UHGV virus genome: UHGV-0294568
DNA from: a virus
Reading direction: 5' to 3' (one strand)
Length of the DNA stretch: 12,356 nucleotides
Part shown: one piece after another, positions 1,535-12,356 of the stretch
Layout: the number at the start of each line of letters is the position of its first letter
How positions within the stretch are numbered: the stretch's first letter is position 1
Notes under the pieces: generated by a model
The model's input: the letters and a program-made list of their open reading frames with translations, nothing else
What the model was told of the DNA's origin: nothing
Database searches by the model: none
Program-made: the position numbers and the translations under genes

Positions 1535-4500
1535 ATGGGTAAAGGTAGCAGTAAGGGGCATACCCCGCGCGAAGCGAAGGACAACCTGAAGTCCACGCAG
1601 TTGCTGAGTGTGATCGATGCCATCAGCGAAGGGCCGATTGAAGGTCCGGTGGATGGATTAAAAAGCGTGCTGCTGAACAGTACGCCAGTGCTGGACAGTG
1701 AGGGGAATACCAATATCTCCGGTGTCACGGTGGTGTTCCGGGCCGGTGAGCAGGAGCAGACACCGCCGGAGGGATTTGAATCCTCTGGCTCCGAGACGGT
1801 GCTGGGTACGGAAGTGAAATACGACACGCCGATCACCCGGACCATCACGTCGGCAAACATTGACCGACTGCGTTTTACCTTCGGCGTGCAGGCACTGGTG
1901 GAAACCACCTCAAAGGGGGACAGGAATCCGTCGGAAGTCCGCCTGCTGGTTCAGATCCAGCGTAATGGTGGCTGGGTGACGGAAAAAGACATCACCATTA
2001 AGGGCAAAACCACCTCGCAGTATCTGGCCTCGGTGGTGGTGGGTAACCTGCCGCCGCGCCCGTTCAATATACGGATGCGCAGGATGACGCCGGACAGCAC
2101 CACAGACCAGCTGCAGAACAAAACGCTCTGGTCGTCATACACCGAAATCATCGATGTGAAACAGTGCTACCCGAACACGGCACTGGTCGGCGTGCAGGTG
2201 GACTCGGAGCAGTTCGGCAGCCAGCAGGTGAGCCGTAATTATCATCTTCGCGGACGCATTCTGCAGGTGCCGTCGAACTATAACCCGCAGACGCGGCAAT
2301 ACAGCGGTATCTGGGACGGAACGTTTAAGCCAGCATACAGCAACAACATGGCCTGGTGTCTGTGGGATATGCTGACCCACCCGCGTTACGGCATGGGTAA
2401 ACGTCTTGGTGCGGCAGATGTGGATAAATGGGCGCTGTATGTCATCGGCCAGTGTTGCGACCAGTCGGTGCCGGACGGTTTTGGCGGCACGGAGCCGCGC
2501 ATCACCTGTAATGCCTGGCTGACCACACAGCGTAAGGTGTGGGATGTTCTCAGTGATTTCTGCTCGGCGATGCGCTGTATGCCGGTATGGAACGGGCAGA
2601 CGCTGACGTTCGTGCAGGACCGGCCATCAGATAAGGTGTGGACCTATAACCGCAGTAATGTGGTGATGCCGGATGATGGCGCGCCGTTCCGCTACAGCTT
2701 CAGCGCCCTGAAGGACCGCCATAATGCCGTTGAGGTGAACTGGATTGACCCGGACAACGGCTGGGAGACGGCGACAGAGCTTGTGGAGGATACGCAGGCC
2801 ATTGCCCGTTACGGTCGTAACGTCACGAAGATGGATGCCTTTGGCTGTACCAGCCGGGGGCAGGCACACCGCGCCGGGCTGTGGCTGATTAAAACGGAGC
2901 TGCTGGAAACGCAGACCGTGGACTTCAGCGTGGGTGCTGAAGGGCTTCGCCATGTACCGGGCGATGTCATTGAAATCTGCGATGATGACTATGTCGGTAT
3001 CAGCACCGGTGGTCGCGTGCTGGCGGTGAACAGCCAGACCCGGACGCTGACGCTCGACCGTGAAATCACGCTGCCATCCTCCGGTACCACGCTGATAAGC
3101 CTGGTTGACGGAAGTGGCAATCCGGTCAGCGTGGAGGTCCAGTCCGTCACCGACGGCGTGAAGGTAAAAGTGAGCCGTGTTCCTGACGGCGTTGCCGGAT
3201 ACAGCGTATGGGGGCTGAAGCTGCCGACGCTGCGCCAGCGCCTGTTCCGCTGCGTGAGTATCCGTGAGAACGATGACGGCACGTATGCCATCACCGCCGT
3301 GCAGCATGTACCGGAAAAAGAGGCCATCGTGGATAACGGGGCGCACTTTGACGGCGACCAGAGCGGCACGGTGAATGGTGTCACGCCGCCAGCAGTGCAG
3401 CATCTGACCGCCGAAGTCACCGCAGACAGCGGGGAATATCAGGTGCTGGCGCGCTGGGACACGCCGAAGGTGGTGAAGGGCGTGAGCTTCCTGCTCCGTC
3501 TGACCGTAACAGCGGATGACGGCAGTGAGTGGCTGGTCAGCACGGCCCGGACGACGGAAACCACTTACCGCTTCACACAACTGGCTCTGGGGAACTACAG
3601 GCTGACAGTCCGGGCAGTAAATGCATGGGGACAGCAGGGCGATCCGGCGTCGGTATCGTTCCGGATTGCCGCACCGGCAGCGCCGTCGCGGATTGAGCTG
3701 ACGCCGGGCTATTTTCAGATAACCGCCACGCCGCATCTTGCGGTTTATGATCCGACGGTACAGTTTGAGTTCTGGTTCTCGGAAAAGCGGATTACCGATA
3801 TCAGGCAGGTTGAAACCACAGCACGCTATCTTGGTACGGCGTTGTACTGGATAGCCGCCAGTATCAATATCAAACCGGGCCATAATTATTATTTTTACGT
3901 TCGCAGTGTGAACACCGTTGGCAAATCGGCATTCGTGGAGGCTGTTGGTCAGCCGAGTGATGACGCATCCGGCTATCTGGATTTTTTCAAAGGCGAGATA
4001 GGGAAAACCCATCTGGCTCAGGAGCTGTGGACGCAGATTGATAACGGTCAGCTTGCGCCTGACCTGGCTGAAATCAGGACATCCATTACGGATGTCAGCA
4101 ATGAAATCACACAGACCGTCAATAAGAAACTGGAAGACCAGAGTGCGGCAATTCAGCAGATACAGAAGGTTCAGGTTGATACAAATAATAACCTGAACAG
4201 CATGTGGGCTGTGAAGCTGCAGCAGATGCAGGACGGACGCCTTTATATCGCGGGTATTGGTGCCGGTATTGAGAACACCCCTGACGGCATGCAGAGTCAG
4301 GTGCTGCTGGCGGCAGACAGGATTGCGATGATTAATCCTGCGAATGGCAACACAAAGCCGATGTTTGTTGGTCAGGGCGATCAGATATTCATGAACGAAG
4401 TGTTCCTGAAACGCCTGACGGCTCCCACCATTACCAGCGGCGGTAATCCTCCGGTATTTTCCCTGACACCGGACGGGCGGCTGACGGCGAAAAATGCCGA

Positions 4501-5032
4501 TATCAGCGGTAACGTGAATGCGAACGCCGGGACGCTCAACAATGTCACGGTAAATGAAAACTGTACGATTAAGGGCATGCTGGAGGCGACTCAGGTCAGA
4601 GGTGACTTCGTTAAAGCTGTATCCAAATCATTCCCGAAACAGGCTGGTACGTGGGGTAACACGGAAACACCAAACGGGACGGTTACAGTCACCATCAGCG
4701 ATGATCATAACTTTGACCGTCAAATCATTATTCCACCCATTATCTTTAACGGAATAGCGTATAGCGATCCGGGAAGTGGTAATAACCCGGGAGGTACAAG
4801 ATACACGGGTTATGGTTTTGAAGTTCGCAAAAACGGTGTATTAATCGCATCCAGAGAAACTAAAGGGGCCATTCCCGGTAGCTACAGTGCGGTTATTGAT
4901 ATGCCGAGTGGCAGGGGAAGCGTCACTCTGGAGTTTAAGGTTTTCCATAAAGGCAATCAGTGGGCAGGTAATATCACCGACTGTACGGTGATTGTGACCA
5001 AAAAAGCTGCTTCCGGCATCAGTATTCGTTGA
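1535..5032 (+). CDS. J: Host specificity protein J (tail tip central fibre)
   Basis: The 1165-aa ORF starts [54 protein letters not shown], as I recall for lambda J. Size and position after I match the lambdoid order. GGAG lies 8 nt upstream of the ATG. Confidence 0.95.
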
Positions 5033-5053
5033 AGTTGTTATAACCCATATAAG

Positions 5054-5077
5054 GGCACCAGAAATGGTGCCTTTTTT
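5054..5077 (+). terminator. Rho-independent terminator after J
   Basis: GGCACC (5054-5059), loop AGAAAT, GGTGCC (5066-5071), then TTTTTT (5072-5077). Confidence 0.6.
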
Positions 5078-5101
5078 ATTGCAGAAAAGCGAGAGGTAAT
5101 T

Positions 5102-5701
5102 ATGCGTAAACTTTATGCCGCCATTTTGTCCGCAGCCATTTGTCTGGCCGTATCCGGTGCGCCTGCATGGGCATCTGAACATCAGTCCACGCTGAGCGCG
5201 GGGTATCTTCATGCCCGGACCAACGTTCCCGGCAGCGATGATCTGAACGGGATTAACGTGAAATACCGTTATGAGTTTACGGACACACTGGGGCTGGTGA
5301 CGTCATTCAGCTATGCAGGAGACAAGAATCGCCAGCTGACCCATTACAGCGATACCCGCTGGCATGAGGATTCCGTGCGTAACCGCTGGTTCAGCGTGAT
5401 GGCGGGGCCGTCTGTACGTGTGAATGAATGGTTCAGCGCGTATGCGATGGCAGGCGTGGCTTACAGCCGTGTGTCGACTTTTTCCGGGGATTATCTCCGC
5501 GTAACTGACAACAAGGGAAAAACGCACGACGTGCTGACCGGAAGTGATGACGCTCGCCACAGTAACACCTCTCTGGCGTGGGGAGCTGGCGTGCAGTTTA
5601 ACCCGACCGAATCCGTGGCCGTTGATGTCGCTTATGAAGGCTCCGGCAGTGGCAACTGGCGCACTGACGGGTTCATCGTGGGTGTCGGTTATAAGTTCTG
5701 A
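5102..5701 (+). CDS. lom: Lom outer membrane protein (Ail/Lom/PagC/Rck family beta-barrel)
   Basis: The 199-aa product has a signal peptide (MRKLYAAILSAAICLAVSGAPAWA) and ends in the aromatic residue F (GFIVGVGYKF), typical of OMP beta-barrels. It is at the lambda lom position between J and stf, with AGAGGT 5 nt upstream of the ATG. Confidence 0.85.
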   Translation: MRKLYAAILSAAICLAVSGAPAWASEHQSTLSAGYLHARTNVPGSDDLNGINVKYRYEFTDTLGLVTSFSYAGDKNRQLTHYSDTRWHEDSVRNRWFSVMAGPSVRVNEWFSAYAMAGVAYSRVSTFSGDYLRVTDNKGKTHDVLTGSDDARHSNTSLAWGAGVQFNPTESVAVDVAYEGSGSGNWRTDGFIVGVGYKF

Positions 5702-5727
5702 TTAGCCAGGTAACACAGTGTTATGAC

Positions 5728-5754
5728 AGCCCGCCGGTTCAGGCGGGCTTTTTT
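5728..5754 (+). terminator. Rho-independent terminator after lom
   Basis: AGCCCGCC (5728-5735), loop GGTTCA, GGCGGGCT (5742-5749), then TTTTT (5750-5754). Confidence 0.65.
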
Positions 5755-5765
5755 GTGGGGTGAAT

Positions 5766-8700
5766 ATGGCAGTAAAGATTTCAGGTGTACTGAAAGACGG
5801 TGCAGGTAAACCGGTACAGAACTGCACAATCCAGCTGAAAGCAAAACGTAACAGCACCACGGTGGTGGTGAACACGGTGGCATCTGAAAATCCGGATGAA
5901 GCCGGGCGTTACAGCATGGACGTTGAGTACGGTCAGTACAGCGTTATTCTGTTGGTGGAAGGATTCCCGCCGTCACATGCCGGGACCATCACCGTGTATG
6001 AAGATTCCCGACCCGGTACGCTGAATGATTTTCTCGGTGCCATGACGGAGGATGATGCCCGTCCGGAGGCACTGCGCCGCTTTGAACTGATGGTGGAAGA
6101 GGTGGCGCGTAACGCGTCCGCAGTGGCGCAGAACACAGCAGCCGCGAAGAAGTCAGCCAGCGATGCCGGCACATCAGCCCGTGAGGCGGCAACCCGTGCG
6201 ACTGATGCTGCAGGCTCAGCACGTGCAGCCAGCACGTCAGCCGGACAGGCCGCGTCGTCGGCTCAGTCAGCGTCTTCCAGCGCAGGAACGGCATCAGCAA
6301 AGGCTACTGAAGCATCAAAAAGTGCTGCCGCTGCAGAGTCTTCAAAAAGCGCGGCAGCCACCAGTGCCGGTGCAGCGAAAACGTCGGAAATGAATGCCGC
6401 AGCATCACAAAAATCTGCGGCCACATCTGCATCCACCGCGACCACGAAAGCGTCAGAAGCTGCCACCTCAGCCCGGGATGCGTCGGCTTCAAAAGTGGCG
6501 GCAAAATCATCAGAAACGAGCGCTGCCTCGAGCGCCGGCAGTGCAGCTTCCTCGGCAACGGCAGCAGGAAATTCCGCGAAGGCCGCAAAAACGTCTGAGA
6601 CGAATGCGGATAACAGCGCACAGGCGGCAGCAGACTCACAAACTGCATCGGCAAACTCCGCGACAGCAGCCAAAAAATCAGAAACCAACGCGAAAAATAG
6701 TGAGTCAGCAGCAAAGGTCAGCGAAACCAACGCTAAAGCGTCAGAGAACAAGGCGAAAGAATATCTCGACAAGGTCGGGGGACTCGTCAGCCCGATGACG
6801 CAATACGATTGGCCTGTTGTTACTGCTAGTGAGTCTCTTTACATCAAGATCGCGAAACTTTCCGATCCTGGAACCAGCAGAAGTCATGTAACGCTAATGG
6901 TTACTAACGCTGGTAACTACGGCTCCCCTTACGGAAACATTGACTTTATCGAGATCTCGGCGCGCGGTCTGCCTTCTTTGCTTAGTGCGGATAATGTTTC
7001 TCGTCATCTGAGTATACGCCGCTTAGGGTCAACCGGGCTGACCGATAACAACCAGATGCGTTACGGCCTGGTTAAAGGTGACGGCTTTATTGAGGTTTGG
7101 GCATTCCAGGGTGCGTTTATTAACGACGCAAAGGTTGCGGTGCTGGCGCAGACAACACTAAACACAGAATTATACATTCCAGACGGATTTGTTAAGCAAA
7201 CCGCCGCGCCTTCTGGATATATTGAAGGCAACGTTGTAAGGATTTACGACCAGGTAAACAAGCCGACTAAAGCAGATTTGGGCCTTTCTAATGCTATGCT
7301 TATAGGCGCTTTTGGTCTTGGCGGTAGCGGTCTTGTTTTGGATGGTAAAATGACCGATAAGGAACTACTACAAGAGCTAAGGGCGAAAGGTGGGTGTTTC
7401 TGGAGGTCAGGAAAACCAACAGGTAGCGAATCAACAATTTTCAGCCACGGTTCTGGTATATTCTCGCGGTGCGGCGATACGTGGTCAGCTATTAATATCG
7501 ATTACGAAAGCGGTAGAGTAAAGATTTACTCTAGTAACGATAATAGACTCAACAATGGTACTTTTAACATAAATGAGCTATACGGAACCAAATACAAGCC
7601 GTCGAAATCGGATGTTGGACTTGGTAACGTAACTAACGATGCGCAGGTGAAAAAATCCGGCGACATTATGTCAGGTAATCTGTCGATCACTAAAGCAACA
7701 CCTTCACTATTCCTGCGTTCAAAAAGTGGAACCGCCCATGTATGGTTCCAAAATGAGGATCAGTCGGAACGCGGCGTTATTTTTGCGCCTACAAATACTG
7801 ATACGCTTGGCGAAGTTCACATCAGGGCTAAAAACGCAAAAGGTCAATCAAGTGGTGATTTTATTGTTCGTCACGACGGGATGGTTGAAGCCCGTGATCT
7901 CACATTAGCGGGTAAAACTAAAGGCGCAAAAGCAGAATTTGCAAACACAAGCACTAGATCCGATGATACTACGGTAAGCATAAAAGGATCTCAGCATACT
8001 CCTCTGGTTTTAACGCGCAACAACACAATTAAAAATTTATCCATTGGGTTTAAGGTTGATGACGTTGACCAAAAATATCTCGGCATATACGGTGACGGTG
8101 ATTTGTATTTTGGTGGTTATTCTGACCACACAAAAAACAGCAAAGTAATTACACAAGCAATACTCGATAGCGGGGTAACGGTAGGCGGCAAAACAACATT
8201 TTCTGACCTTGCCACATTTAACGCAGGTATGTCTGGGCCTATCGAGCCGGAAGCCATTGAAGGCATGACTATCGATCTTAATGACCTTATCATTAAGTTC
8301 ACGGATAAAGGTTCAGTTAAATACTATCACTGCAAAACTGCCGGAGGCGGTTCGAATATTACCAATAAGCCTGACGGCGTAGGCGGCAACTTTTTGCTTC
8401 GTGTAGAGTCAATTCGTAAGGTTAGTGATTCAGATTATATAAACATGCAAACGCTGATTAGCGGCGACAAAGGACGCGTGCATGTTCGTTTTGTTACTAA
8501 TGGTAATTGGACAGCATGGAGCGAGCATGTTGTTTCAGGATGGAATCAGGATGTGACCGTCAGGTCGTTAACCTCGACGACTCCATCAAAATTAGGCGGC
8601 GGGCGTGTTGATGTGCTGGGGAGTACGTCAGATTACAGTAGTATGAATTGTGCTGTGCGCGGTGTTGATAGCACTGGAACCAATTCGGCGTGGTCAGTAG

Positions 8701-9527
8701 GTACATCGGAAAACACGGGAAAAATGTTGTGCCTTAAAAACCACAGAAGCAGCGCTCAAGTGCTGTTAAATGGCGATGATGGCGCGGTGCAACTACTAAG
8801 CGGTACTGTCAACGGTGCTACAGCACAGGCGCTAACCATCAACAAAGATGAGGTTAACTCAACTGCTGATTTAGTAATTAGAAAACAGTCAGGGACTGGC
8901 AATCGTTTTGTTTTAAAGAACGCAGGTAATGCAGAACTACCGTTTAACATCAGTGTATGGGGTTCAAGTGATCGACAAAACGTTTTTGAGGTTGGAACGT
9001 CTGCTGCGTATCTGTTTTATGCGCAAAGAACGCCAGCAGGCCAGTTGTTTGATGTAAATGGCGCTATTAATTGCACAACGCTGAATCAGTCATCAGACCG
9101 CGACCTTAAAGACGATATTCTCGTTATCAGCGACGCGACGAAAGCAATCCGCAAAATGAACGGGTACACCTACACGCTCAAGGAAAACGGCCTTCCTTAT
9201 GCTGGCGTTATTGCACAGGAAGTAATGGAGGCGCTACCGGAAGCCGTAGGATCGTTTACTCGTTACGGTGAAGAATTGCAGGGTCCGACCATTGATGGCA
9301 ACGAGCTACGCGAAGAAACGCGTTACCTCAATGTTGATTATGCGGCGGTGACTGGTTTACTTGTCCAGGTCGCCCGTGAAACAGATGATCGCGTTACCGC
9401 GCTGGAAGAGGAAAACACAACGCTACGTCAAAATCTGGCAACAGCAGACACCCGGATCAGCACTCTGGAAAATCAGGTAAGCGAACTGGTTGCACTTGTC
9501 CGGCAGTTAACAGGAAGCGAACATTGA
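5766..9527 (+). CDS. stf: Side tail fibre protein, mosaic: lambda Stf-like N-terminus, Ala/Ser/Thr-rich repeat block, divergent distal region, C-terminal intramolecular-chaperone (peptidase S74-like) domain
   Basis: ATG at 5766 gives MAVKISGVLKDGAGKPVQNCTIQLKAKRNSTTVVVNTVASENPDEAGRYSMDVEYGQYSV, as I recall for lambda Stf; the track start at 5760 is GTG. The C-terminus has SSDRDLKDDILVIS ... GYTYTLKENG followed by a heptad-like coiled coil (LEEENTTLRQNLATADTRISTLENQVSELVALVRQL), as in self-cleaving chaperone domains of endosialidase-type fibres. GC drops after about 6780. Confidence 0.85.
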   Translation: MAVKISGVLKDGAGKPVQNCTIQLKAKRNSTTVVVNTVASENPDEAGRYSMDVEYGQYSVILLVEGFPPSHAGTITVYEDSRPGTLNDFLGAMTEDDARPEALRRFELMVEEVARNASAVAQNTAAAKKSASDAGTSAREAATRATDAAGSARAASTSAGQAASSAQSASSSAGTASAKATEASKSAAAAESSKSAAATSAGAAKTSEMNAAASQKSAATSASTATTKASEAATSARDASASKVAAKSSETSAASSAGSAASSATAAGNSAKAAKTSETNADNSAQAAADSQTASANSATAAKKSETNAKNSESAAKVSETNAKASENKAKEYLDKVGGLVSPMTQYDWPVVTASESLYIKIAKLSDPGTSRSHVTLMVTNAGNYGSPYGNIDFIEISARGLPSLLSADNVSRHLSIRRLGSTGLTDNNQMRYGLVKGDGFIEVWAFQGAFINDAKVAVLAQTTLNTELYIPDGFVKQTAAPSGYIEGNVVRIYDQVNKPTKADLGLSNAMLIGAFGLGGSGLVLDGKMTDKELLQELRAKGGCFWRSGKPTGSESTIFSHGSGIFSRCGDTWSAINIDYESGRVKIYSSNDNRLNNGTFNINELYGTKYKPSKSDVGLGNVTNDAQVKKSGDIMSGNLSITKATPSLFLRSKSGTAHVWFQNEDQSERGVIFAPTNTDTLGEVHIRAKNAKGQSSGDFIVRHDGMVEARDLTLAGKTKGAKAEFANTSTRSDDTTVSIKGSQHTPLVLTRNNTIKNLSIGFKVDDVDQKYLGIYGDGDLYFGGYSDHTKNSKVITQAILDSGVTVGGKTTFSDLATFNAGMSGPIEPEAIEGMTIDLNDLIIKFTDKGSVKYYHCKTAGGGSNITNKPDGVGGNFLLRVESIRKVSDSDYINMQTLISGDKGRVHVRFVTNGNWTAWSEHVVSGWNQDVTVRSLTSTTPSKLGGGRVDVLGSTSDYSSMNCAVRGVDSTGTNSAWSVGTSENTGKMLCLKNHRSSAQVLLNGDDGAVQLLSGTVNGATAQALTINKDEVNSTADLVIRKQSGTGNRFVLKNAGNAELPFNISVWGSSDRQNVFEVGTSAAYLFYAQRTPAGQLFDVNGAINCTTLNQSSDRDLKDDILVISDATKAIRKMNGYTYTLKENGLPYAGVIAQEVMEALPEAVGSFTRYGEELQGPTIDGNELREETRYLNVDYAAVTGLLVQVARETDDRVTALEEENTTLRQNLATADTRISTLENQVSELVALVRQLTGSEH
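6111..6760 (+). repeat. Low-complexity imperfect tandem repeats inside stf (Ala/Ser/Thr-rich, recurring AAK(T/K)SETNA-like units)
   Basis: Protein residues about 118-335 are almost entirely A/S/T/K/E, with recurring units AAKTSEMNAAAS, AAKTSETNADNS, AAKKSETNAKNS and AKVSETNAKAS. The track's antisense ORFs here are composition artefacts. Confidence 0.6.
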
Positions 9528-9710
9528 TATCCTTCAAGCTCTGAAGGAGGCTGTTCCCGGTACGTTCAGACTGTTGTTGAGCTGGAGATCGCAACGGAGG
9601 AAGAAACCTCATTGCTGGAAGCCTGGAAAAAGTATCGGGTGTTGCTGAACCGTGTTGATACATCAACTGCACCTGATATTGAGTGGCCTGCGGTCCCTGT
9701 TATGGAGTAA
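9528..9710 (+). pseudogene. tfa: 3' remnant of a tail fibre assembly gene, in frame immediately after the stf stop codon, with no start codon of its own
   Basis: The 60 codons after the stf TGA (9525-9527) read [60 protein letters not shown], ending at TAA 9708-9710. The [26 protein letters not shown] tail matches what I recall of enterobacterial Tfa C-termini. Confidence 0.5.
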
Positions 9711-9724
9711 TCGTTTTGTGATAT

Positions 9725-9758
9725 GCCGCAGCAACTTGTCATGGCAGGATACTGCGGC
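9725..9758. other. Inverted repeat (7-bp stem, 21-nt loop) downstream of the tfa remnant; weak terminator candidate
   Basis: GCCGCAG (9725-9731) and CTGCGGC (9752-9758). The loop contains GGCAGGATA. The downstream sequence TGATTTGTGAATTT is only moderately T-rich. Confidence 0.3.
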
Positions 9759-9893
9759 TGATTTGTGAATTTAAATAGTGTGTTTATTGCTTTATATATA
9801 AAGGATTTAATGGATTACATATCTATGATATCCCTGAAATGTCCTCTTCAAGCTCTTTTACTGATTTCGCAATTTTAAATTTAAATTTTCTCT

Positions 9894-11192
9894 CTATTTC
9901 ACTATTGCTAAGTTTTTTTCATTCTCTTTCCCTATCCACATAGAAACAATTTCTCGTTTCTGAGATATATGTAGATTGTCAAAGTTAGGTATGTATTTAA
10001 AAGTCTCCGCTCTACCCCTGCGGAGTTCATAGAAAGTTTTAATCAAAGACTTTGGTTTTATTTCTGATGAAAGGCCGAATCGGCGGATAAGATTATTGAT
10101 CGTATGATTAACAGCTCGAAGTTGAGCTGTTGACGTTATTTGTGAGAAGTACGATACCCATCCCAATCGTTTACCTTCAAACACACATCCCGTAATTCTA
10201 AGATTTAGTTTCCACTGACAATATGCAACAGCTCGTTCTTTATCGCGCTTATTTTTAGCTTGTAGTAGAGCGTGTCTATATGCAGTAAAAATTTTTGCTA
10301 AGGATGACTCAAATCTAAGAATGCTCTCATGTTTTATCAATAATTCTCGATTTTTTATGTGGTAGCCCAAAAAGTTGAAACTTTCATCCAAGCTGCCTAC
10401 TTTGGATTTTGAGTTCTCTTCATTTAATGGATGTGGGTTTAAATTTAATGATTGAAGCTTATCAATGATATGAGAAGCTATTTTTGTTGCTTGATATTTT
10501 GGTGTTAAAATAAGAATGTCATCAACGTATCGCATGTACCATATGTCATGCATTTTATTGATTTCATCATCGAAATTAGATAGTGATATTTCAGCTAAAA
10601 TGTTTGATATCGCTAATCCCTGAGGTACTCCTCTGGTATTATTAGGGATACCTTTGCTTCCTGTGGTTCCACTTACAGTAGGCACGATTAATGATGATGT
10701 TATTAACTGTCTAATTTCTTTTTTTCTAATTTTATTTTTTATTGCATTAATTATCAATTTATGTTCAATTGAAGGATAGAAACTTTTAAGATCTATTTTT
10801 GCATATTCAGCATATAGACTGTTGTTTAATGCTTCTTTCAATGAGTCAATTACTGTATGTGGTAGTTTTAATCTGGACTTAGGATATATTTCCGTAAGGC
10901 ATTCACAGAGAGCTCTAAGAGTAATTCTGTCCCTAGCAGTTGGTATGGAAATCTGTCTGGGTGTAGAGTTAGCGCCTTTAGATATTAATTTTTCTTTATA
11001 TGCTGTAAATTTGTAATTGCCAGAATTAACCTTTTCAAAAATGAAAGTGATCTCATTTTTTATTGTCAAATCAAGTTTTGATGGGCGAATCCGATCTATG
11101 CCAATCGCTCCTGATTCTTTGATTTTTTCAGAGTATACTTTTAGAAGATTTTTTTTCGAGAATGACTTTTTAAAAATTCTGCTTGCAGTCAT
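9894..11192 (-). CDS. Reverse transcriptase, compact single-domain type (fingers-palm-thumb), family unassigned
   Basis: RT motifs are readable in order: GIDRI; RQISIPTARDRITLRAL; IDLKSFYPSIEH; GVPQGLAISNILAE; YMRYVDDILIL; FNFLGYHI; and a thumb-like RLGWVSYF. The track start at 11198 is TTG; the first ATG is at 11192. The 5' end overlaps the upstream membrane-protein gene by 23 nt. Sampled lines are about 22-33% GC, against about 57% in one J line. Confidence 0.85.
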   Translation of the reverse strand: MTASRIFKKSFSKKNLLKVYSEKIKESGAIGIDRIRPSKLDLTIKNEITFIFEKVNSGNYKFTAYKEKLISKGANSTPRQISIPTARDRITLRALCECLTEIYPKSRLKLPHTVIDSLKEALNNSLYAEYAKIDLKSFYPSIEHKLIINAIKNKIRKKEIRQLITSSLIVPTVSGTTGSKGIPNNTRGVPQGLAISNILAEISLSNFDDEINKMHDIWYMRYVDDILILTPKYQATKIASHIIDKLQSLNLNPHPLNEENSKSKVGSLDESFNFLGYHIKNRELLIKHESILRFESSLAKIFTAYRHALLQAKNKRDKERAVAYCQWKLNLRITGCVFEGKRLGWVSYFSQITSTAQLRAVNHTINNLIRRFGLSSEIKPKSLIKTFYELRRGRAETFKYIPNFDNLHISQKREIVSMWIGKENEKNLAIVK

Positions 11193-11721
11193 AGTCAATC
11201 CAAAGATATATTAATGGGAGTATATAAAGTGCGGCAGTAATAAATATTCGAAGTAATATCCATAAAATAACAATTATTTTTTCTTTTTGTGTGGGGATCC
11301 TCGTCTTAAGTCCAACTTGAGTTACCCTTGAAATTTTATCATCTATGTCACGGTGATTCTCAACCTCATTGAGCAAATTAAAATATTTTTCTTTCTGTTC
11401 AAGAGATAACTGTTGACTGGTGGTAATGTCAAAATAGAGTCGCTGTAGTGCAATATAATTCCTTCTCATGGCTATTGCTCGACCACGAAAATCTAGGTTA
11501 GATACGATCAGAGAAATACCCAGTAGAGCCACTGAAAGTATCGCCGCAACGACATCTGTATTATCTCCTAGAACCTTTGGAAATCGCAACGTTACAATTG
11601 AAAGTACCGCACTCAATATAGCATACCAAACGAGGATAAATTGAGAGTGTTTTTCAAGCCATTCTAGTCGATGGTGCGCTTGGATACGTGCTTTATATGT
11701 AAACCAAATATTGTCATGCAT
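11170..11721 (-). CDS. Multi-pass membrane protein (2TM N-terminal module plus long C-terminal hydrophobic segment), candidate effector partner of the RT
   Basis: The 183-aa product has hydrophobic segments at about residues 27-45 (FILVWYAILSAVLSIVTL), 56-74 (VVAAILSVALLGISLIVS) and 148-175 (IIVILWILLRIFITAALYILPLIYLWI), with a basic helix between. AAGGA lies about 6 nt upstream of the ATG. It shares AT-richness and strand with the RT. Confidence 0.55.
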   Translation of the reverse strand: MHDNIWFTYKARIQAHHRLEWLEKHSQFILVWYAILSAVLSIVTLRFPKVLGDNTDVVAAILSVALLGISLIVSNLDFRGRAIAMRRNYIALQRLYFDITTSQQLSLEQKEKYFNLLNEVENHRDIDDKISRVTQVGLKTRIPTQKEKIIVILWILLRIFITAALYILPLIYLWIDYDCKQNF

Positions 11722-11743
11722 AAAAGATCCTTTTTAAAAGCGG

Positions 11744-11873
11744 AAGGGGCAGGATATATTGGAACCGTTGAACATCCTGCCCGGCAGGATCAGTGAGCAT
11801 AAGCTCAACAGTAAAATATTACTGTTCATTATCAGAGCCGCCCTTGCATGCGCAAGAGGAAAAACCTGCCCCA
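11744..11873 (-). ncRNA. Candidate structured non-coding leader RNA upstream of the membrane-protein/RT genes (hypothetical)
   Basis: On the - strand, GGGGCAGG near the 5' end (complement of 11865-11872) and CCTGCCCC near the 3' end (complement of 11746-11753) bracket about 110 nt. Inside are the hairpins CTTGC-GCAT-GCAAG and AACAGTAA-TATT-TTACTGTT and the 17-bp palindrome. No ORF is present. No folding or homology search was done. Confidence 0.2.
11774..11790. promoter_or_regulatory. Perfect 17-bp palindrome ATCCTGCC-C-GGCAGGAT in the leader of the membrane-protein/RT operon
   Basis: Read directly: 11774-11781 ATCCTGCC, 11782 C, 11783-11790 GGCAGGAT. A third copy of GGCAGGAT at 11748-11755 can pair with 11774-11781 across an 18-nt loop. 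Confidence 0.3.
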
Positions 11874-11880
11874 TCCCTTT

Positions 11881-11912
11881 GAATTATTACAATTTAATGA
11901 TCTTAAAGTCAA
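11881..11912 (-). promoter_or_regulatory. Putative sigma70-like promoter for the leader/membrane-protein/RT transcript
   Basis: The - strand reads TTGACT (complement of 11907-11912), a 15-17 nt spacer, then TGTAAT/TAATAA (complement of about 11884-11892). Only a pattern match. Confidence 0.25.
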
Positions 11913-11943
11913 TACAAGTGAATGGTGTCCAGAGATGATGAAC

Positions 11944-12192
11944 TTAATGAACAAACCACTCGTCAGCAGACTCCCAGGTATCTTTCAGAGTCTCCTGAAC
12001 AAAAGTTTTAGCTGAATCTTTATCAGCGGTGCGCGTAACAGAAAGGCCATCGTTGCTGGTGGCTTTTACGATCACTTCTACATCGTCATAACGTTTACTG
12101 ATGCGTCGGGTTAATTCTTCCTTTAACGCATCCACAGCACCGGTTGGCATTTTAGTCATTTTTTCTTTGGCTATGCAGATTTCAATACGCAT
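11944..12192 (-). CDS. dinI: DinI-like protein (DinI family, RecA/SOS modulator)
   Basis: The 82-aa product [35 protein letters not shown] ... LSV ... [17 protein letters not shown] matches the DinI pattern as I recall it (MRIE..IAK...P.GA.DAL..EL.RRI ... TWESAD.WF). GGGGA lies about 7 nt upstream of the ATG. Confidence 0.75.
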
Positions 12193-12285
12193 AAAAGTCC
12201 CCTACACTGTATTTGTATGGGTCTTCCCTTGTTGTGGTGGCTGAAGGCATGATAATGGTGTATTTAATCGCCAGAGGTCACCGCC

Positions 12286-12356
12286 ATGGACGAAAAGTCC
12301 CTCTACGCTCATATTCTCAACCTGTCCGATCCGTGGCAGGTAAAGTCCCTTTCTCT
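12286..12356 (+). CDS. 5' end of an ORF truncated by the window edge; possibly an ISL3-like transposase N-terminus (tentative)
   Basis: ATG at 12286 with AGAGGT 8 nt upstream; translation MDEKSLYAHILNLSDPWQVKSLSL. The hL.L.DpW.V pattern resembles N-termini of ISL3-family transposases as I recall them, but 23 residues is too short to be sure. Confidence 0.3.
   Translation, partial: MDEKSLYAHILNLSDPWQVKSLS

What the first reader, a model, noticed from the sequence alone, without database searches (positions are those of the whole stretch)
11744..11912. Structured non-coding leader with flanking 8-bp inverted repeats upstream of the RT operon: possible template or regulatory RNA
Seen in sequence: the 222-nt gap between the dinI-like stop and the membrane-protein start has no ORF and differs in composition from the AT-rich cassette. 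On the transcribed strand, GGGGCAGG and CCTGCCCC bracket about 110 nt containing two short perfect hairpins and a 17-bp palindrome, downstream of a TTGACT/TGTAAT promoter-like pair. Established knowledge: retron ncRNAs (msr-msd) are flanked by short a1/a2 inverted repeats, and several defence RTs need an adjacent structured ncRNA. Inference: this leader could be the cognate RNA of the RT. It is short for a typical retron ncRNA, and I could not place a branching G.
Basis: partly seen in the sequence, partly recalled or inferred. Interest (0 to 1): 0.65.

Follow-up and report, generated by a model that had tools for sequence, protein, structure and literature searches.

The report
DRT10 reverse-transcriptase template RNA gene

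Summary
On the minus strand, 11876-11740 encodes a 137-nt RNA.

The downstream genes are a SLATT_5 protein and a UG17 reverse transcriptase, which together form the DRT10 defence system. Three 2025-2026 preprints show that this system needs an upstream ncRNA as template and scaffold.

Evidence that the leader is that ncRNA:
- It differs at 3 of 137 positions from the leader beside an RT that matches the characterised Eco3DRT10 RT over the 397 residues available.
- A covariance model built only from non-E. coli homologues finds it at 116 bits (E about 4e-28).
- Across 27 homologues, 17 of 34 base pairs show compensatory changes.

The loop carries the defining A-B-A' pattern (CAAC-GGUUC-CAAU) at the published positions 107-119. 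It predicts a (GAACCGTTG)n cDNA, whereas Eco3 makes GAATCATTG.

It is not a retron. The RT fails the retron model, and the orthologue primes from its C-terminal serine.

Verdict: correct inference, already known, and not annotated in RefSeq or matched in Rfam.

Caveat: the window's RT has a 1-nt deletion in an A-run that removes the priming serine.

The parts
11907..11912 (-). -35 element TTGACT of the ncRNA promoter, which is probably also the operon promoter
   Evidence: Promoter scan: TTGACT, 18-nt spacer, AATAAT, 10 of 12 matches, TG present. TTGACT or TTGATT occurs at the same offset (-37) in the window, L002 and the Xenorhabdus, Photorhabdus (L029) and Buttiauxella homologues.
11883..11891 (-). 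Extended -10 (TG-T-AATAAT); predicted transcription start about 7 nt downstream, at 11876
   Evidence: A -10-like hexamer sits at a fixed -13/-14 from SL1 in at least 22 of 27 homologues.
11740..11876 (-). DRT10 ncRNA, Eco3DRT10 type, 137 nt. The ends are inferred by register with the published 137-nt species.
   Evidence: The covariance model from non-E. coli homologues hits 11877-11739 at 116.1 bits, E = 3.6e-28. Folded alone, the RNA gives the basal stem plus four hairpins, -57.2 kcal/mol. It differs at 3 of 137 nt from the leader beside an RT that matches Eco3DRT10 over the 397 residues available.
11865..11876 (-). SL1 5' strand, GGAUGGGGCAGG (ncRNA nt 1-12)
   Evidence: 12-nt inverted repeat, 92% complementary. 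Of 11 predicted pairs, 9 show compensatory changes.
11742..11753 (-). SL1 3' strand, CCUGCCCCUUCC (nt 124-135)
11838..11860 (-). SL2 (nt 17-39)
   Evidence: Helix 2: 8 pairs, 99.1% paired, 2 pairs with compensatory changes.
11827..11837 (-). Loop A, CUCUGAUAAUG (nt 40-50). It is highly conserved and includes U43 and G44, the positions where the second RT monomer makes a short abortive product in Eco3.
   Evidence: C42, U43, A45, A47 and A48 are invariant in 27 homologues. The role is taken from 10.64898/2026.06.29.735271.
11807..11826 (-). SL3 (nt 51-70), an AU-rich hairpin AACAGUAA/UUACUGUU
   Evidence: I6. Helix 3: 100% paired, 3 pairs with compensatory changes.
11795..11806 (-). SL4 (nt 71-82), GAGC/GCUC
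   Evidence: Helix 4: 95.4% paired, 2 pairs with compensatory changes.
11774..11790 (-). SL5 (nt 87-103), the '17-bp palindrome'. In Eco3 it is the 5' template-boundary element.
   Evidence: I5. Helix 5: 100% paired. The boundary role comes from PMC12632851 and 10.64898/2026.06.29.735271. G86 (11791) and G104 (11773), which flank SL5, are invariant.
11754..11773 (-). Loop B, the template loop (nt 104-123): G104, linker U105-U106, A = CAAC (11770-11767), B = GGUUC (11766-11762), A' = CAAU (11761-11758), linker AUAU (11757-11754)
   Evidence: Read directly from the sequence, in the same numbering as Eco3. The (U)CAA...(U)CAA pattern, period 9-11 nt, is present in 24 of 27 homologues. U105, U106 and C107 are invariant and C116 is nearly invariant.
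11719..11731 (-). Shine-Dalgarno AGGA (11731-11728) and the ATG of the SLATT gene (11721-11719). Only 18 nt separate the ncRNA 3' end (11740) from the ATG.
   Evidence: Direct reading. No second minus-strand promoter was found.
11170..11721 (-). SLATT_5 effector gene (183 aa)
   Evidence: Pfam SLATT_5, E = 1.3e-28. PADLOC RT-associated SLATT, E = 1.5e-56. NCBIfam SLATT_5, 136 bits against a cut-off of 60.
9823..11192 (-). UG17 (DRT10) RT gene. In this window an A7 run (9913-9919; A8 elsewhere) shifts the frame, so the ORF stops at 9894.
   Evidence: PADLOC RT_UG17, E = 7.8e-151. Indel. The downstream frame still encodes ...EEDISGIS*.

Best explanation
The region is the gene for the DRT10 (UG17) non-coding RNA of the Eco3DRT10 type.

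**Transcription (inferred).** A sigma-70 promoter (TTGACT, 18-nt spacer, TG-n-AATAAT) starts transcription at about 11876.

**Fold (shown here by covariation).** SL1 closes SL2, Loop A, SL3, SL4, SL5 (the 'palindrome') and Loop B.

**Mechanism (from the published orthologue, inferred here by near identity).** Two RT monomers bind the RNA. The monomer on Loop B primes from its own C-terminal Ser456 opposite C116, copies B then A (GGUUC, then CAAC), and stops at C107, a fixed distance from SL5. The cDNA 3' end (GTTG) then re-anneals to A' (CAAU; three Watson-Crick pairs plus a dG-rU wobble), and the cycle repeats.

**Prediction.** This allele should give protein-linked (GAACCGTTG)n single-stranded DNA. 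That DNA is thought to control the SLATT membrane effector during phage infection.

**Operon (inferred).** Only 18 nt and a Shine-Dalgarno sequence lie between the RNA and the SLATT ATG. The same transcript probably reads on as the SLATT-RT mRNA.
For: - **Gene identities:** RT_UG17 at E = 7.8e-151, RT-associated SLATT at E = 1.5e-56, and SLATT_5.
- **Literature:** DRT10 has a 137-nt ncRNA upstream of SLATT with five stem-loops and an A-B-A' template at nt 107-119. RT stops at C107, primes at C116, and G86-G104 are conserved.
- **Numbering:** the window's RNA reproduces this exactly. C107, G111, C116, the U105-U106 linker, the A120-U123 linker, SL1 at 75% GC and SL3 at 25% GC are all read directly from the sequence.
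- **Near identity to Eco3:** L048 encodes an RT matching Eco3DRT10 over the 397 aa available. Its leader differs from the window at 3 of 137 ncRNA positions, two of them in the template. My reconstructed Eco3 template allele occurs exactly in 34 complete genomes.
- **Independent covariance model** (no E. coli sequences): 116 bits, E = 3.6e-28, minus strand only; the next hit has E = 0.06.
- **Covariation:** 17 of 34 pairs have compensatory changes; 97.6% of cells are paired against 48-56% for slid controls.
- **Template pattern:** A-B-A' is retained in 24 of 27 homologues while B varies.
- **Promoter position** is conserved across genera.
- **RT residues** that contact SL5 and SL1 (R371, K385, Y388) and Ser456 are invariant in 23 RT homologues.
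Against: - No expression, RT-binding or cDNA data exist for this allele. The RNA ends are inferred by register with the Eco3 species.
- I could not obtain the deposited Eco3DRT10 ncRNA sequence itself, because the supplement rows are truncated. Identity to it rests on a locus whose RT matches over 397 residues, plus the published motif.
- The window's RT is frameshifted (A7 against A8) and lacks the C-terminal helix and Ser456. If this is real, the RNA here has no working partner.
- In the 222-nt context, the MFE of the single sequence prefers an alternative pairing.
- A GUUC...GUUC register with an 8-nt period also exists in this allele, so the repeat could be less precise than predicted.
- How the cDNA acts on SLATT is unresolved in the literature.
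Confidence: 0.93

Rival explanations
1. A retron msr-msd RNA. The inverted repeats would be a1/a2, and the RT would make branched multicopy single-stranded DNA from a 2'-OH of a conserved G.
For: Flanking inverted repeats enclose a structured RNA next to an RT gene. Several database names for homologous RTs say 'retron-type'.
Against: - The RT scores 58 bits against a 235-bit cut-off for the retron St85 model, and 501 bits for RT_UG17.
- There is no long msd hairpin; the conserved single-stranded template is 9 nt.
- The orthologous RT is protein-primed from Ser456 and makes tandem repeats, not msDNA.
- Rfam gives no retron-related or other hit in the leader.
Confidence: 0.01
2. A purely cis-regulatory 5' leader (attenuator, thermosensor or riboswitch-like) that controls SLATT-RT expression through alternative pairings, with no template role.
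For: - The RNA ends 18 nt before the SLATT ATG, and no separate promoter was found for the genes.
- In the window, a perfect 9-bp alternative pairing (11782-11774 with 11755-11747) competes with SL5 and SL1 and is part of the MFE of the 222-nt gap.
- A short U-run follows SL1.
Against: - The alternative helix shows no covariation: 71.9% paired, equal to the shuffles, with zero double changes.
- The canonical fold is strongly supported.
- In orthologues the RNA acts in trans, binds the RT and templates cDNA.
- The conserved features (A-B-A', G86/G104, C107, C116) match template functions.
Confidence: 0.03
3. A small protein gene: the 46-codon minus-strand ORF at 11874-11734 (MGQVFPLAH...).
For: An ATG-initiated ORF spans most of the region.
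Against: - The ORF is absent or broken in the homologues, including a 96%-identical E. coli copy.
- Its ATG is part of SL1 and is replaced by GGAAGG or GAAGAG elsewhere.
- Substitutions preserve base pairs rather than codons, and indels are not multiples of three.
- There is no Shine-Dalgarno sequence.
Confidence: 0.01

Closest known systems
Eco3DRT10 ncRNA (E. coli 703491; Tang et al. 2025, PMC12632851; Ramirez et al. 2026, 10.64898/2026.06.29.735271)
   Same: - Same position upstream of overlapping SLATT-RT genes.
- Same 137-nt register and the same five stem-loops.
- Loop A and Loop B are of the same kind.
- The same G86, G104, U105-U106, C107, C116 and A120-U123.
- The RT is 98% identical over 397 aa.
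   Different: There are three substitutions inferred by comparison with L048.
- C25U in SL2 keeps the pair as a wobble.
- C110U and G112A lie in the template. The predicted repeat is therefore GAACCGTTG instead of GAATCATTG, and the A/A' identity is 3 nt plus a wobble instead of 4 nt.

The window-type allele is the commoner one in complete E. coli genomes (154 against 34). The window's RT is frameshifted.
Eco1DRT10 and Escherichia sp. E3659 UG17-A ncRNAs (143 nt, six stem-loops; Sanchez-Nieto et al. 2026, 10.64898/2026.04.29.721553)
   Same: Same system, same location, a basal stem closing several hairpins, and a template loop with a short direct repeat (ACU...ACU giving AGTAATA repeats).
   Different: The RNA sequence clade differs: six stem-loops and other templates. 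Covariance models do not cross clades, as those authors report. My own model also finds nothing in the distant UG17 loci.
SenDRT9 (UG28) ncRNA
   Same: A Class 2 UG RT with an upstream scaffold and template ncRNA of similar overall shape, and protein-primed repetitive DNA synthesis.
   Different: DRT9 uses a conserved poly-U template to make poly-dA. The window's Loop B has no U-tract, and the RT matches Drt9 at only 69 bits against 501 for UG17.
Telomerase RNA
   Same: It works alike: a short internal template, an adjacent alignment segment (A') and a structured 5' template-boundary element (SL5) give processive repeat addition.
   Different: There is no RNA homology (no Rfam telomerase hit). 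Priming is from protein rather than a chromosome 3' end. The complex is 2 RT to 1 RNA, and the function is antiviral.
Retron msr-msd
   Same: A structured RNA closed by terminal inverted repeats, next to its RT and an effector.
   Different: The RT clade is different. There is no branching G, no msd hairpin and no msDNA; the template is 9 nt and is copied iteratively.

Membership tests
DRT10 (UG17) ncRNA, Eco3DRT10-like clade | Encoded directly upstream of, and on the same strand as, a SLATT_5 gene followed by an overlapping UG17 RT gene | tested here: met
   The ncRNA ends 18 nt before the SLATT ATG, and SLATT and the RT overlap.
DRT10 (UG17) ncRNA, Eco3DRT10-like clade | Basal stem closing four further stem-loops, supported by covariation | tested here: met
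   RNAalifold gives 5 helices and 34 pairs, 17 of them with compensatory changes. 97.6% of cells are paired against 48-56% for slid partners, and 0 of 500 shuffles reach the observed value. The single-sequence MFE of the 137-mer gives the same fold.
DRT10 (UG17) ncRNA, Eco3DRT10-like clade | Matches a covariance model of the clade | tested here: met
   The published model was not available. My own model R1, built from 25 non-E. coli homologues, scores 116.1 bits, E = 3.6e-28, at 11877-11739 on the minus strand.
DRT10 (UG17) ncRNA, Eco3DRT10-like clade | A-B-A' direct-repeat pattern in the loop immediately 3' of the last stem-loop | tested here: met
   CAAC-GGUUC-CAAU at nt 107-119 (11770-11758). 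The homologous (U)CAA...(U)CAA pattern is present in 24 of 27 homologues. Within a single loop the pattern is not significant against shuffles (p about 0.2); the support comes from its conserved position.
DRT10 (UG17) ncRNA, Eco3DRT10-like clade | Conserved anchor nucleotides reported from the cryo-EM work (G86-G104 pair, 2-nt 5' linker, stop at C107, priming at C116) | tested here: met
   G86, G104, U105, U106 and C107 are invariant, and C116 is at least 90% conserved, in alignment A2.
DRT10 (UG17) ncRNA, Eco3DRT10-like clade | The RNA is expressed, binds the RT and templates RT-dependent tandem-repeat cDNA | not testable with these tools
   Shown for Eco3DRT10, Eco1, Eco2, E3659 and six other systems, but not for this allele.
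DRT10 (UG17) ncRNA, Eco3DRT10-like clade | Partner RT intact, with the C-terminal helix and terminal priming Ser | tested here: not met
   In this window an A7 run (A8 elsewhere) shifts the frame at about codon 427. The ORF ends at 434 aa (counted from the upstream TTG; 432 from the ATG at 11192) instead of 456. S456 is invariant in 23 homologues. This concerns the integrity of the system, not the identity of the RNA, and it may be a sequencing error.
Retron msr-msd | RT belongs to the retron clade | tested here: not met
   NCBIfam retron_St85_RT gives 58.4 bits against a 235-bit cut-off. The best PADLOC model is RT_UG17 at 500.7 bits.
Retron msr-msd | a1/a2 inverted repeats flanking the RNA | tested here: met
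   A 12-nt terminal inverted repeat is present, but terminal pairing is not specific to retrons.
Retron msr-msd | Conserved branching G and a long msd hairpin that is reverse-transcribed | tested here: not met
   No long msd-like hairpin is present: the longest inner stems are 7-9 bp. The orthologue is primed from protein, and RNase does not affect the product. The branch chemistry itself cannot be tested here.
DRT9 (UG28) ncRNA | Conserved poly-U template loop and a UG28 RT | tested here: not met
   Loop B is GUUCAACGGUUCCAAUAUAU, with no U-tract. The Drt9 model scores 69 bits against 501 for UG17.
Any Rfam 15 family | Match at or near the gathering score | tested here: not met
   Only noise in the leader: MEG8_1 at 15 bits, E = 1.8.

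The most novel reading that the evidence does not exclude
The two natural E. coli template alleles (CAACGGUUC, here and in 154 complete genomes; CAAUGAUUC in 34) differ at just two template positions in an otherwise almost invariant RNA. This could reflect selection on the sequence of the repeat DNA itself, for example recognition by the co-encoded SLATT protein or escape from phage or host nucleases, rather than neutral drift. In addition, the window allele's extra GUUC...GUUC register could make it produce mixed 8/9-nt repeats.
Probability: 0.1. Interest if true: 0.45.

Novelty: already known. Interest (0 to 1): 0.28.

Why it matters
DRT10 is of current interest because its RT-RNA pair adds repeats the way telomerase does, and it has been proposed as a bacterial relative of telomerase. 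This window adds no new kind of element.

It does show three practical things:
- The ncRNA can be recognised from raw sequence alone.
- It carries no annotation in the RefSeq E. coli genomes examined and has no Rfam match.
- Most E. coli copies carry a template allele different from the one studied, which predicts a different repeat DNA.

The frameshift that removes the priming serine is a reminder to check that such cassettes are intact before assuming they are active.

Tried and rejected
- **Rfam 15** at E up to 10 over 9500-12356: nothing credible in the leader.
- **Alternative fold.** The MFE of the whole 222-nt gap pairs GGGGCAGG with the 5' arm of the palindrome, and GGGCAGGAU with AUCCUGCCC. 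Tested on 27 homologues, this helix shows no covariation, so I treat it as lineage-specific and probably incidental.
- **Coding hypothesis** for the 46-aa ORF: not conserved.
- **Published Eco3DRT10 ncRNA sequence.** I searched the Tang et al. supplement, but the Eco3 rows of Table S2 are cut in the stored copy. I therefore reconstructed the allele from the published motif and confirmed that it exists exactly in 34 genomes, next to an RT matching Eco3 over 397 aa.
- **Model R1 on distant UG17 loci** (alphaproteobacteria and others, 24-37% RT identity): no hits. This agrees with the published statement that the models are clade-specific, and it says nothing about those loci lacking an RNA.
- **Significance of A-B-A' in a single loop** against shuffles: weak (p about 0.2). 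Only the conserved position carries weight.
- **dinI terminator** between 11943 and the -35 element: none found on the minus strand.

Full report
**Context**

The window is the end of a lambdoid prophage of E. coli. It carries tail genes: a GpJ-like 1165-aa protein and a 1255-aa tail fibre. On the minus strand follows a three-gene block: a DinI-family gene (11944-12192), a 183-aa SLATT_5 protein (11170-11721) and a reverse transcriptase.

PADLOC assigns the RT to RT_UG17 (E = 7.8e-151, 500.7 bits) and the membrane protein to the RT-associated SLATT family (E = 1.5e-56). NCBIfam confirms SLATT_5. The RT falls far below the cut-offs for retron, group II intron, Drt2 and Drt3a models. The 2-kb cassette occurs at 95.7-100% identity in 188 of 5426 complete E. 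coli genomes.

**Observation**

- The gap is 222 nt.
- GGGGCAGG and CCTGCCCC lie 111 nt apart. They extend to a 12-nt inverted repeat with one U-U mismatch.
- The 17-nt palindrome and the 8-bp AACAGTAA/TTACTGTT hairpin are both present.
- TTGACT is at 11912-11907.

The best -10 element is AATAAT at 11888-11883, with an 18-nt spacer and an upstream TG (10 of 12 matches), rather than TGTAAT. The RNA is 50% G+C, in a cassette of 22-41%. Mechanical ORFs exist in the gap, but none is conserved.

**What is known about such cassettes**

A full-text search found three preprints.
- **Tang et al. 2025 (PMC12632851)** named UG17 + SLATT 'DRT10'. RIP-seq showed that the Eco3DRT10 RT binds a 137-nt ncRNA encoded upstream of SLATT. 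The RNA has a central stem decorated with four stem-loops, and it is required for defence. The RT, primed from its C-terminal Ser456, copies a 9-nt segment of a loop over and over into (GAATCATTG)n. This depends on an A-B-A' pattern (A = nt 107-110, A' = nt 116-119) and on SL5 just upstream.
- **Sanchez-Nieto et al. 2026** reached the same picture for a different UG17-A system, including trans-complementation by the ncRNA.
- **Ramirez et al. 2026** solved RT-ncRNA structures. Two RT monomers sit on one pseudo-symmetric RNA. Loop A (G44) gives an abortive product of about 10 nt, and Loop B (G111) gives the repeats. Synthesis stops at C107, a fixed distance from SL5, which is anchored by a G86-G104 pair and R371. 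Priming is opposite C116. Truncating even 5 aa of the C-terminal helix kills defence.

**Is the window's leader that RNA?**

Four independent lines say yes.

*1. Register.* If position 1 is set at 11876, the sequence gives the following:
- C107-A-A-C110, G111-G-U-U-C115 and C116-A-A-U119;
- U105-U106 and A120-U123 as linkers, with G86, G104 and G44 in place;
- SL1 at 75% GC and SL3 at 25% GC.

These are exactly the published numbers. The 137-mer folded alone gives SL1-SL5.

*2. Near identity.* Locus L048 (E. coli Z0117EC0051) encodes an RT matching Eco3DRT10 (OKX54664) over all 397 residues available to me. Its leader differs from the window at 4 positions in 173 nt, 3 of them inside the ncRNA: C25U, C110U and G112A. 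A query carrying the published Eco3 template (CAATGATTC) matches 34 complete genomes exactly. The other 154 carry the window-type template CAACGGTTC. No feature is annotated under any of the 40 matches listed.

*3. Independent covariance model.* I collected 44 RT-homologous loci from the species-representative genome collection and located their SLATT genes. I then aligned 27 distinct leaders from Escherichia, Xenorhabdus, Photorhabdus, Buttiauxella, Pseudomonas, Stutzerimonas, Stenotrophomonas, Bordetella and a MAG. A model built from the 25 non-E. coli sequences finds the window at 11877-11739, minus strand, at 116.1 bits and E = 3.6e-28. The next hit has E = 0.06.

*4. Covariation.* RNAalifold predicts 34 pairs in five helices, 17 of them with compensatory double changes. 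With that structure, 97.6% of cells are paired and 86 cells carry double changes. Slid partners give 48-56% and 11-16, and 0 of 500 shuffles reach the observed values.

**Template**

Loop B reads GUUCAACGGUUCCAAUAUAU. By homology with Eco3, A-B is CAAC-GGUUC and A' is CAAU. The predicted product is therefore (GAACCGTTG)n. Its 3' end, GTTG, re-anneals on CAAU through three Watson-Crick pairs and a dG-rU wobble. Tang et al. found three bases of A/A' identity sufficient, and the fourth tolerant to change.

A (U)CAA...(U)CAA pattern with a 9-11 nt period and a variable B occurs at the same place in 24 of 27 homologues. The window allele also contains GUUC...GUUC with an 8-nt period. The geometric stop at C107 argues against its use, but this is untested.

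**Transcription**

The -10-like hexamer sits at a fixed -13/-14 from SL1 in at least 22 of 27 homologues, and a TTGAnT -35 is present in the window, L002 and three other enterobacterial leaders. This supports a start at the foot of SL1.

The RNA ends 18 nt before the SLATT ATG, and I found no other minus-strand promoter. I therefore infer that the operon mRNA is a read-through of the same transcript. Whether the 137-nt species arises by termination at the short U-run or by processing is unknown.

**Rivals**

- **Retron:** rejected on RT family, absence of an msd hairpin, and protein priming in the orthologue.
- **Purely regulatory leader:** the window-specific 9-bp alternative pairing that dominates the MFE of the whole gap shows no covariation.
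- **Small ORF:** not conserved.

**Caveat on this particular copy**

The window has A7 where L001, L002, L003 and L048 have A8 (9913-9919), and every top hit listed among complete genomes also carries one extra base over the region. The RT therefore ends at 434 aa instead of 456. It loses the C-terminal helix and Ser456, which is invariant in 23 homologues. The next frame still encodes ...EEDISGIS*. So this is either a homopolymer sequencing error or a very recent inactivating mutation. If it is real, published data predict no cDNA and no defence.

**Verdict**

The element is the already characterised DRT10 ncRNA. It is the commoner natural template allele, not annotated in RefSeq or matched in Rfam. 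Novelty: already known. Interest: low to moderate.

Noticed in passing
window 9913-9919 (minus strand A-run), RT gene 9823-11192: There is a one-base deletion (A7 against A8 in every comparator) in the RT gene. It shifts the frame at about codon 427, so the ORF ends at 9894 (434 aa) and lacks the C-terminal helix and the invariant priming Ser456. The following frame still reads LSNSEIERKFKFKIAKSVKELEEDISGIS*. This is either a sequencing error in a homopolymer or a fresh inactivating mutation.
   Followed up: yes
window 12219-12356: Just upstream of the DinI-family gene, the window diverges from the integrase-dusA flank seen in L001. It instead matches an ISL3-family ISKox3 element found in thousands of E. 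coli records. The insertion lies about 26 nt from the dinI ATG and may have displaced its promoter.
   Followed up: partly
E. coli complete genomes; window 11762-11770: There are two natural template alleles in otherwise near-identical ncRNAs. CAAUGAUUC (the studied Eco3 allele) occurs in 34 genomes, and CAACGGUUC (the window type) in 154. Two of the three differences between the alleles fall in the 9-nt template.
   Followed up: partly
window 11747-11755 with 11774-11782: A perfect 9-bp alternative pairing joins the 3' arm of SL5 to the 3' strand of SL1. It would enclose the template loop, and it dominates the MFE of the 222-nt gap. It is not supported by covariation in 27 homologues.
   Followed up: yes
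window 9500-9667 (+): There is a partial match to Rfam IS009 (RF02111), 90.8 bits, E = 1.2e-20. It is cut at the start of my search range and lies below the 117-bit gathering score, in the tail-fibre / tail-fibre-assembly region.
   Followed up: no
L003 (E. coli APEC O78, NC_020163.1) 2930-6369: This copy of the cassette is decaying. The RT is split into two CDS by a frameshift near window position 10719, and an IS2 is inserted immediately upstream of the ncRNA promoter region.
   Followed up: no
L001, L002: The same prophage end with the DRT10 cassette sits at different chromosomal sites: next to an integrase and dusA in L001, and next to prfC in L002. In L002 the DinI-family gene is annotated as frameshifted.
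   Followed up: no
window 11734-11874 (minus strand): A 46-codon ATG ORF lies inside the ncRNA, and its ATG is nt 3-5 of SL1. It is absent or interrupted in all homologues examined.
   Followed up: yes
L030-L047: Distant UG17-like loci (alphaproteobacteria, a Flavobacteriaceae MAG and a Saccharibacteria MAG; 24-37% RT identity) are not detected by the Eco3-clade covariance model. Their leaders were not examined further.
   Followed up: partly
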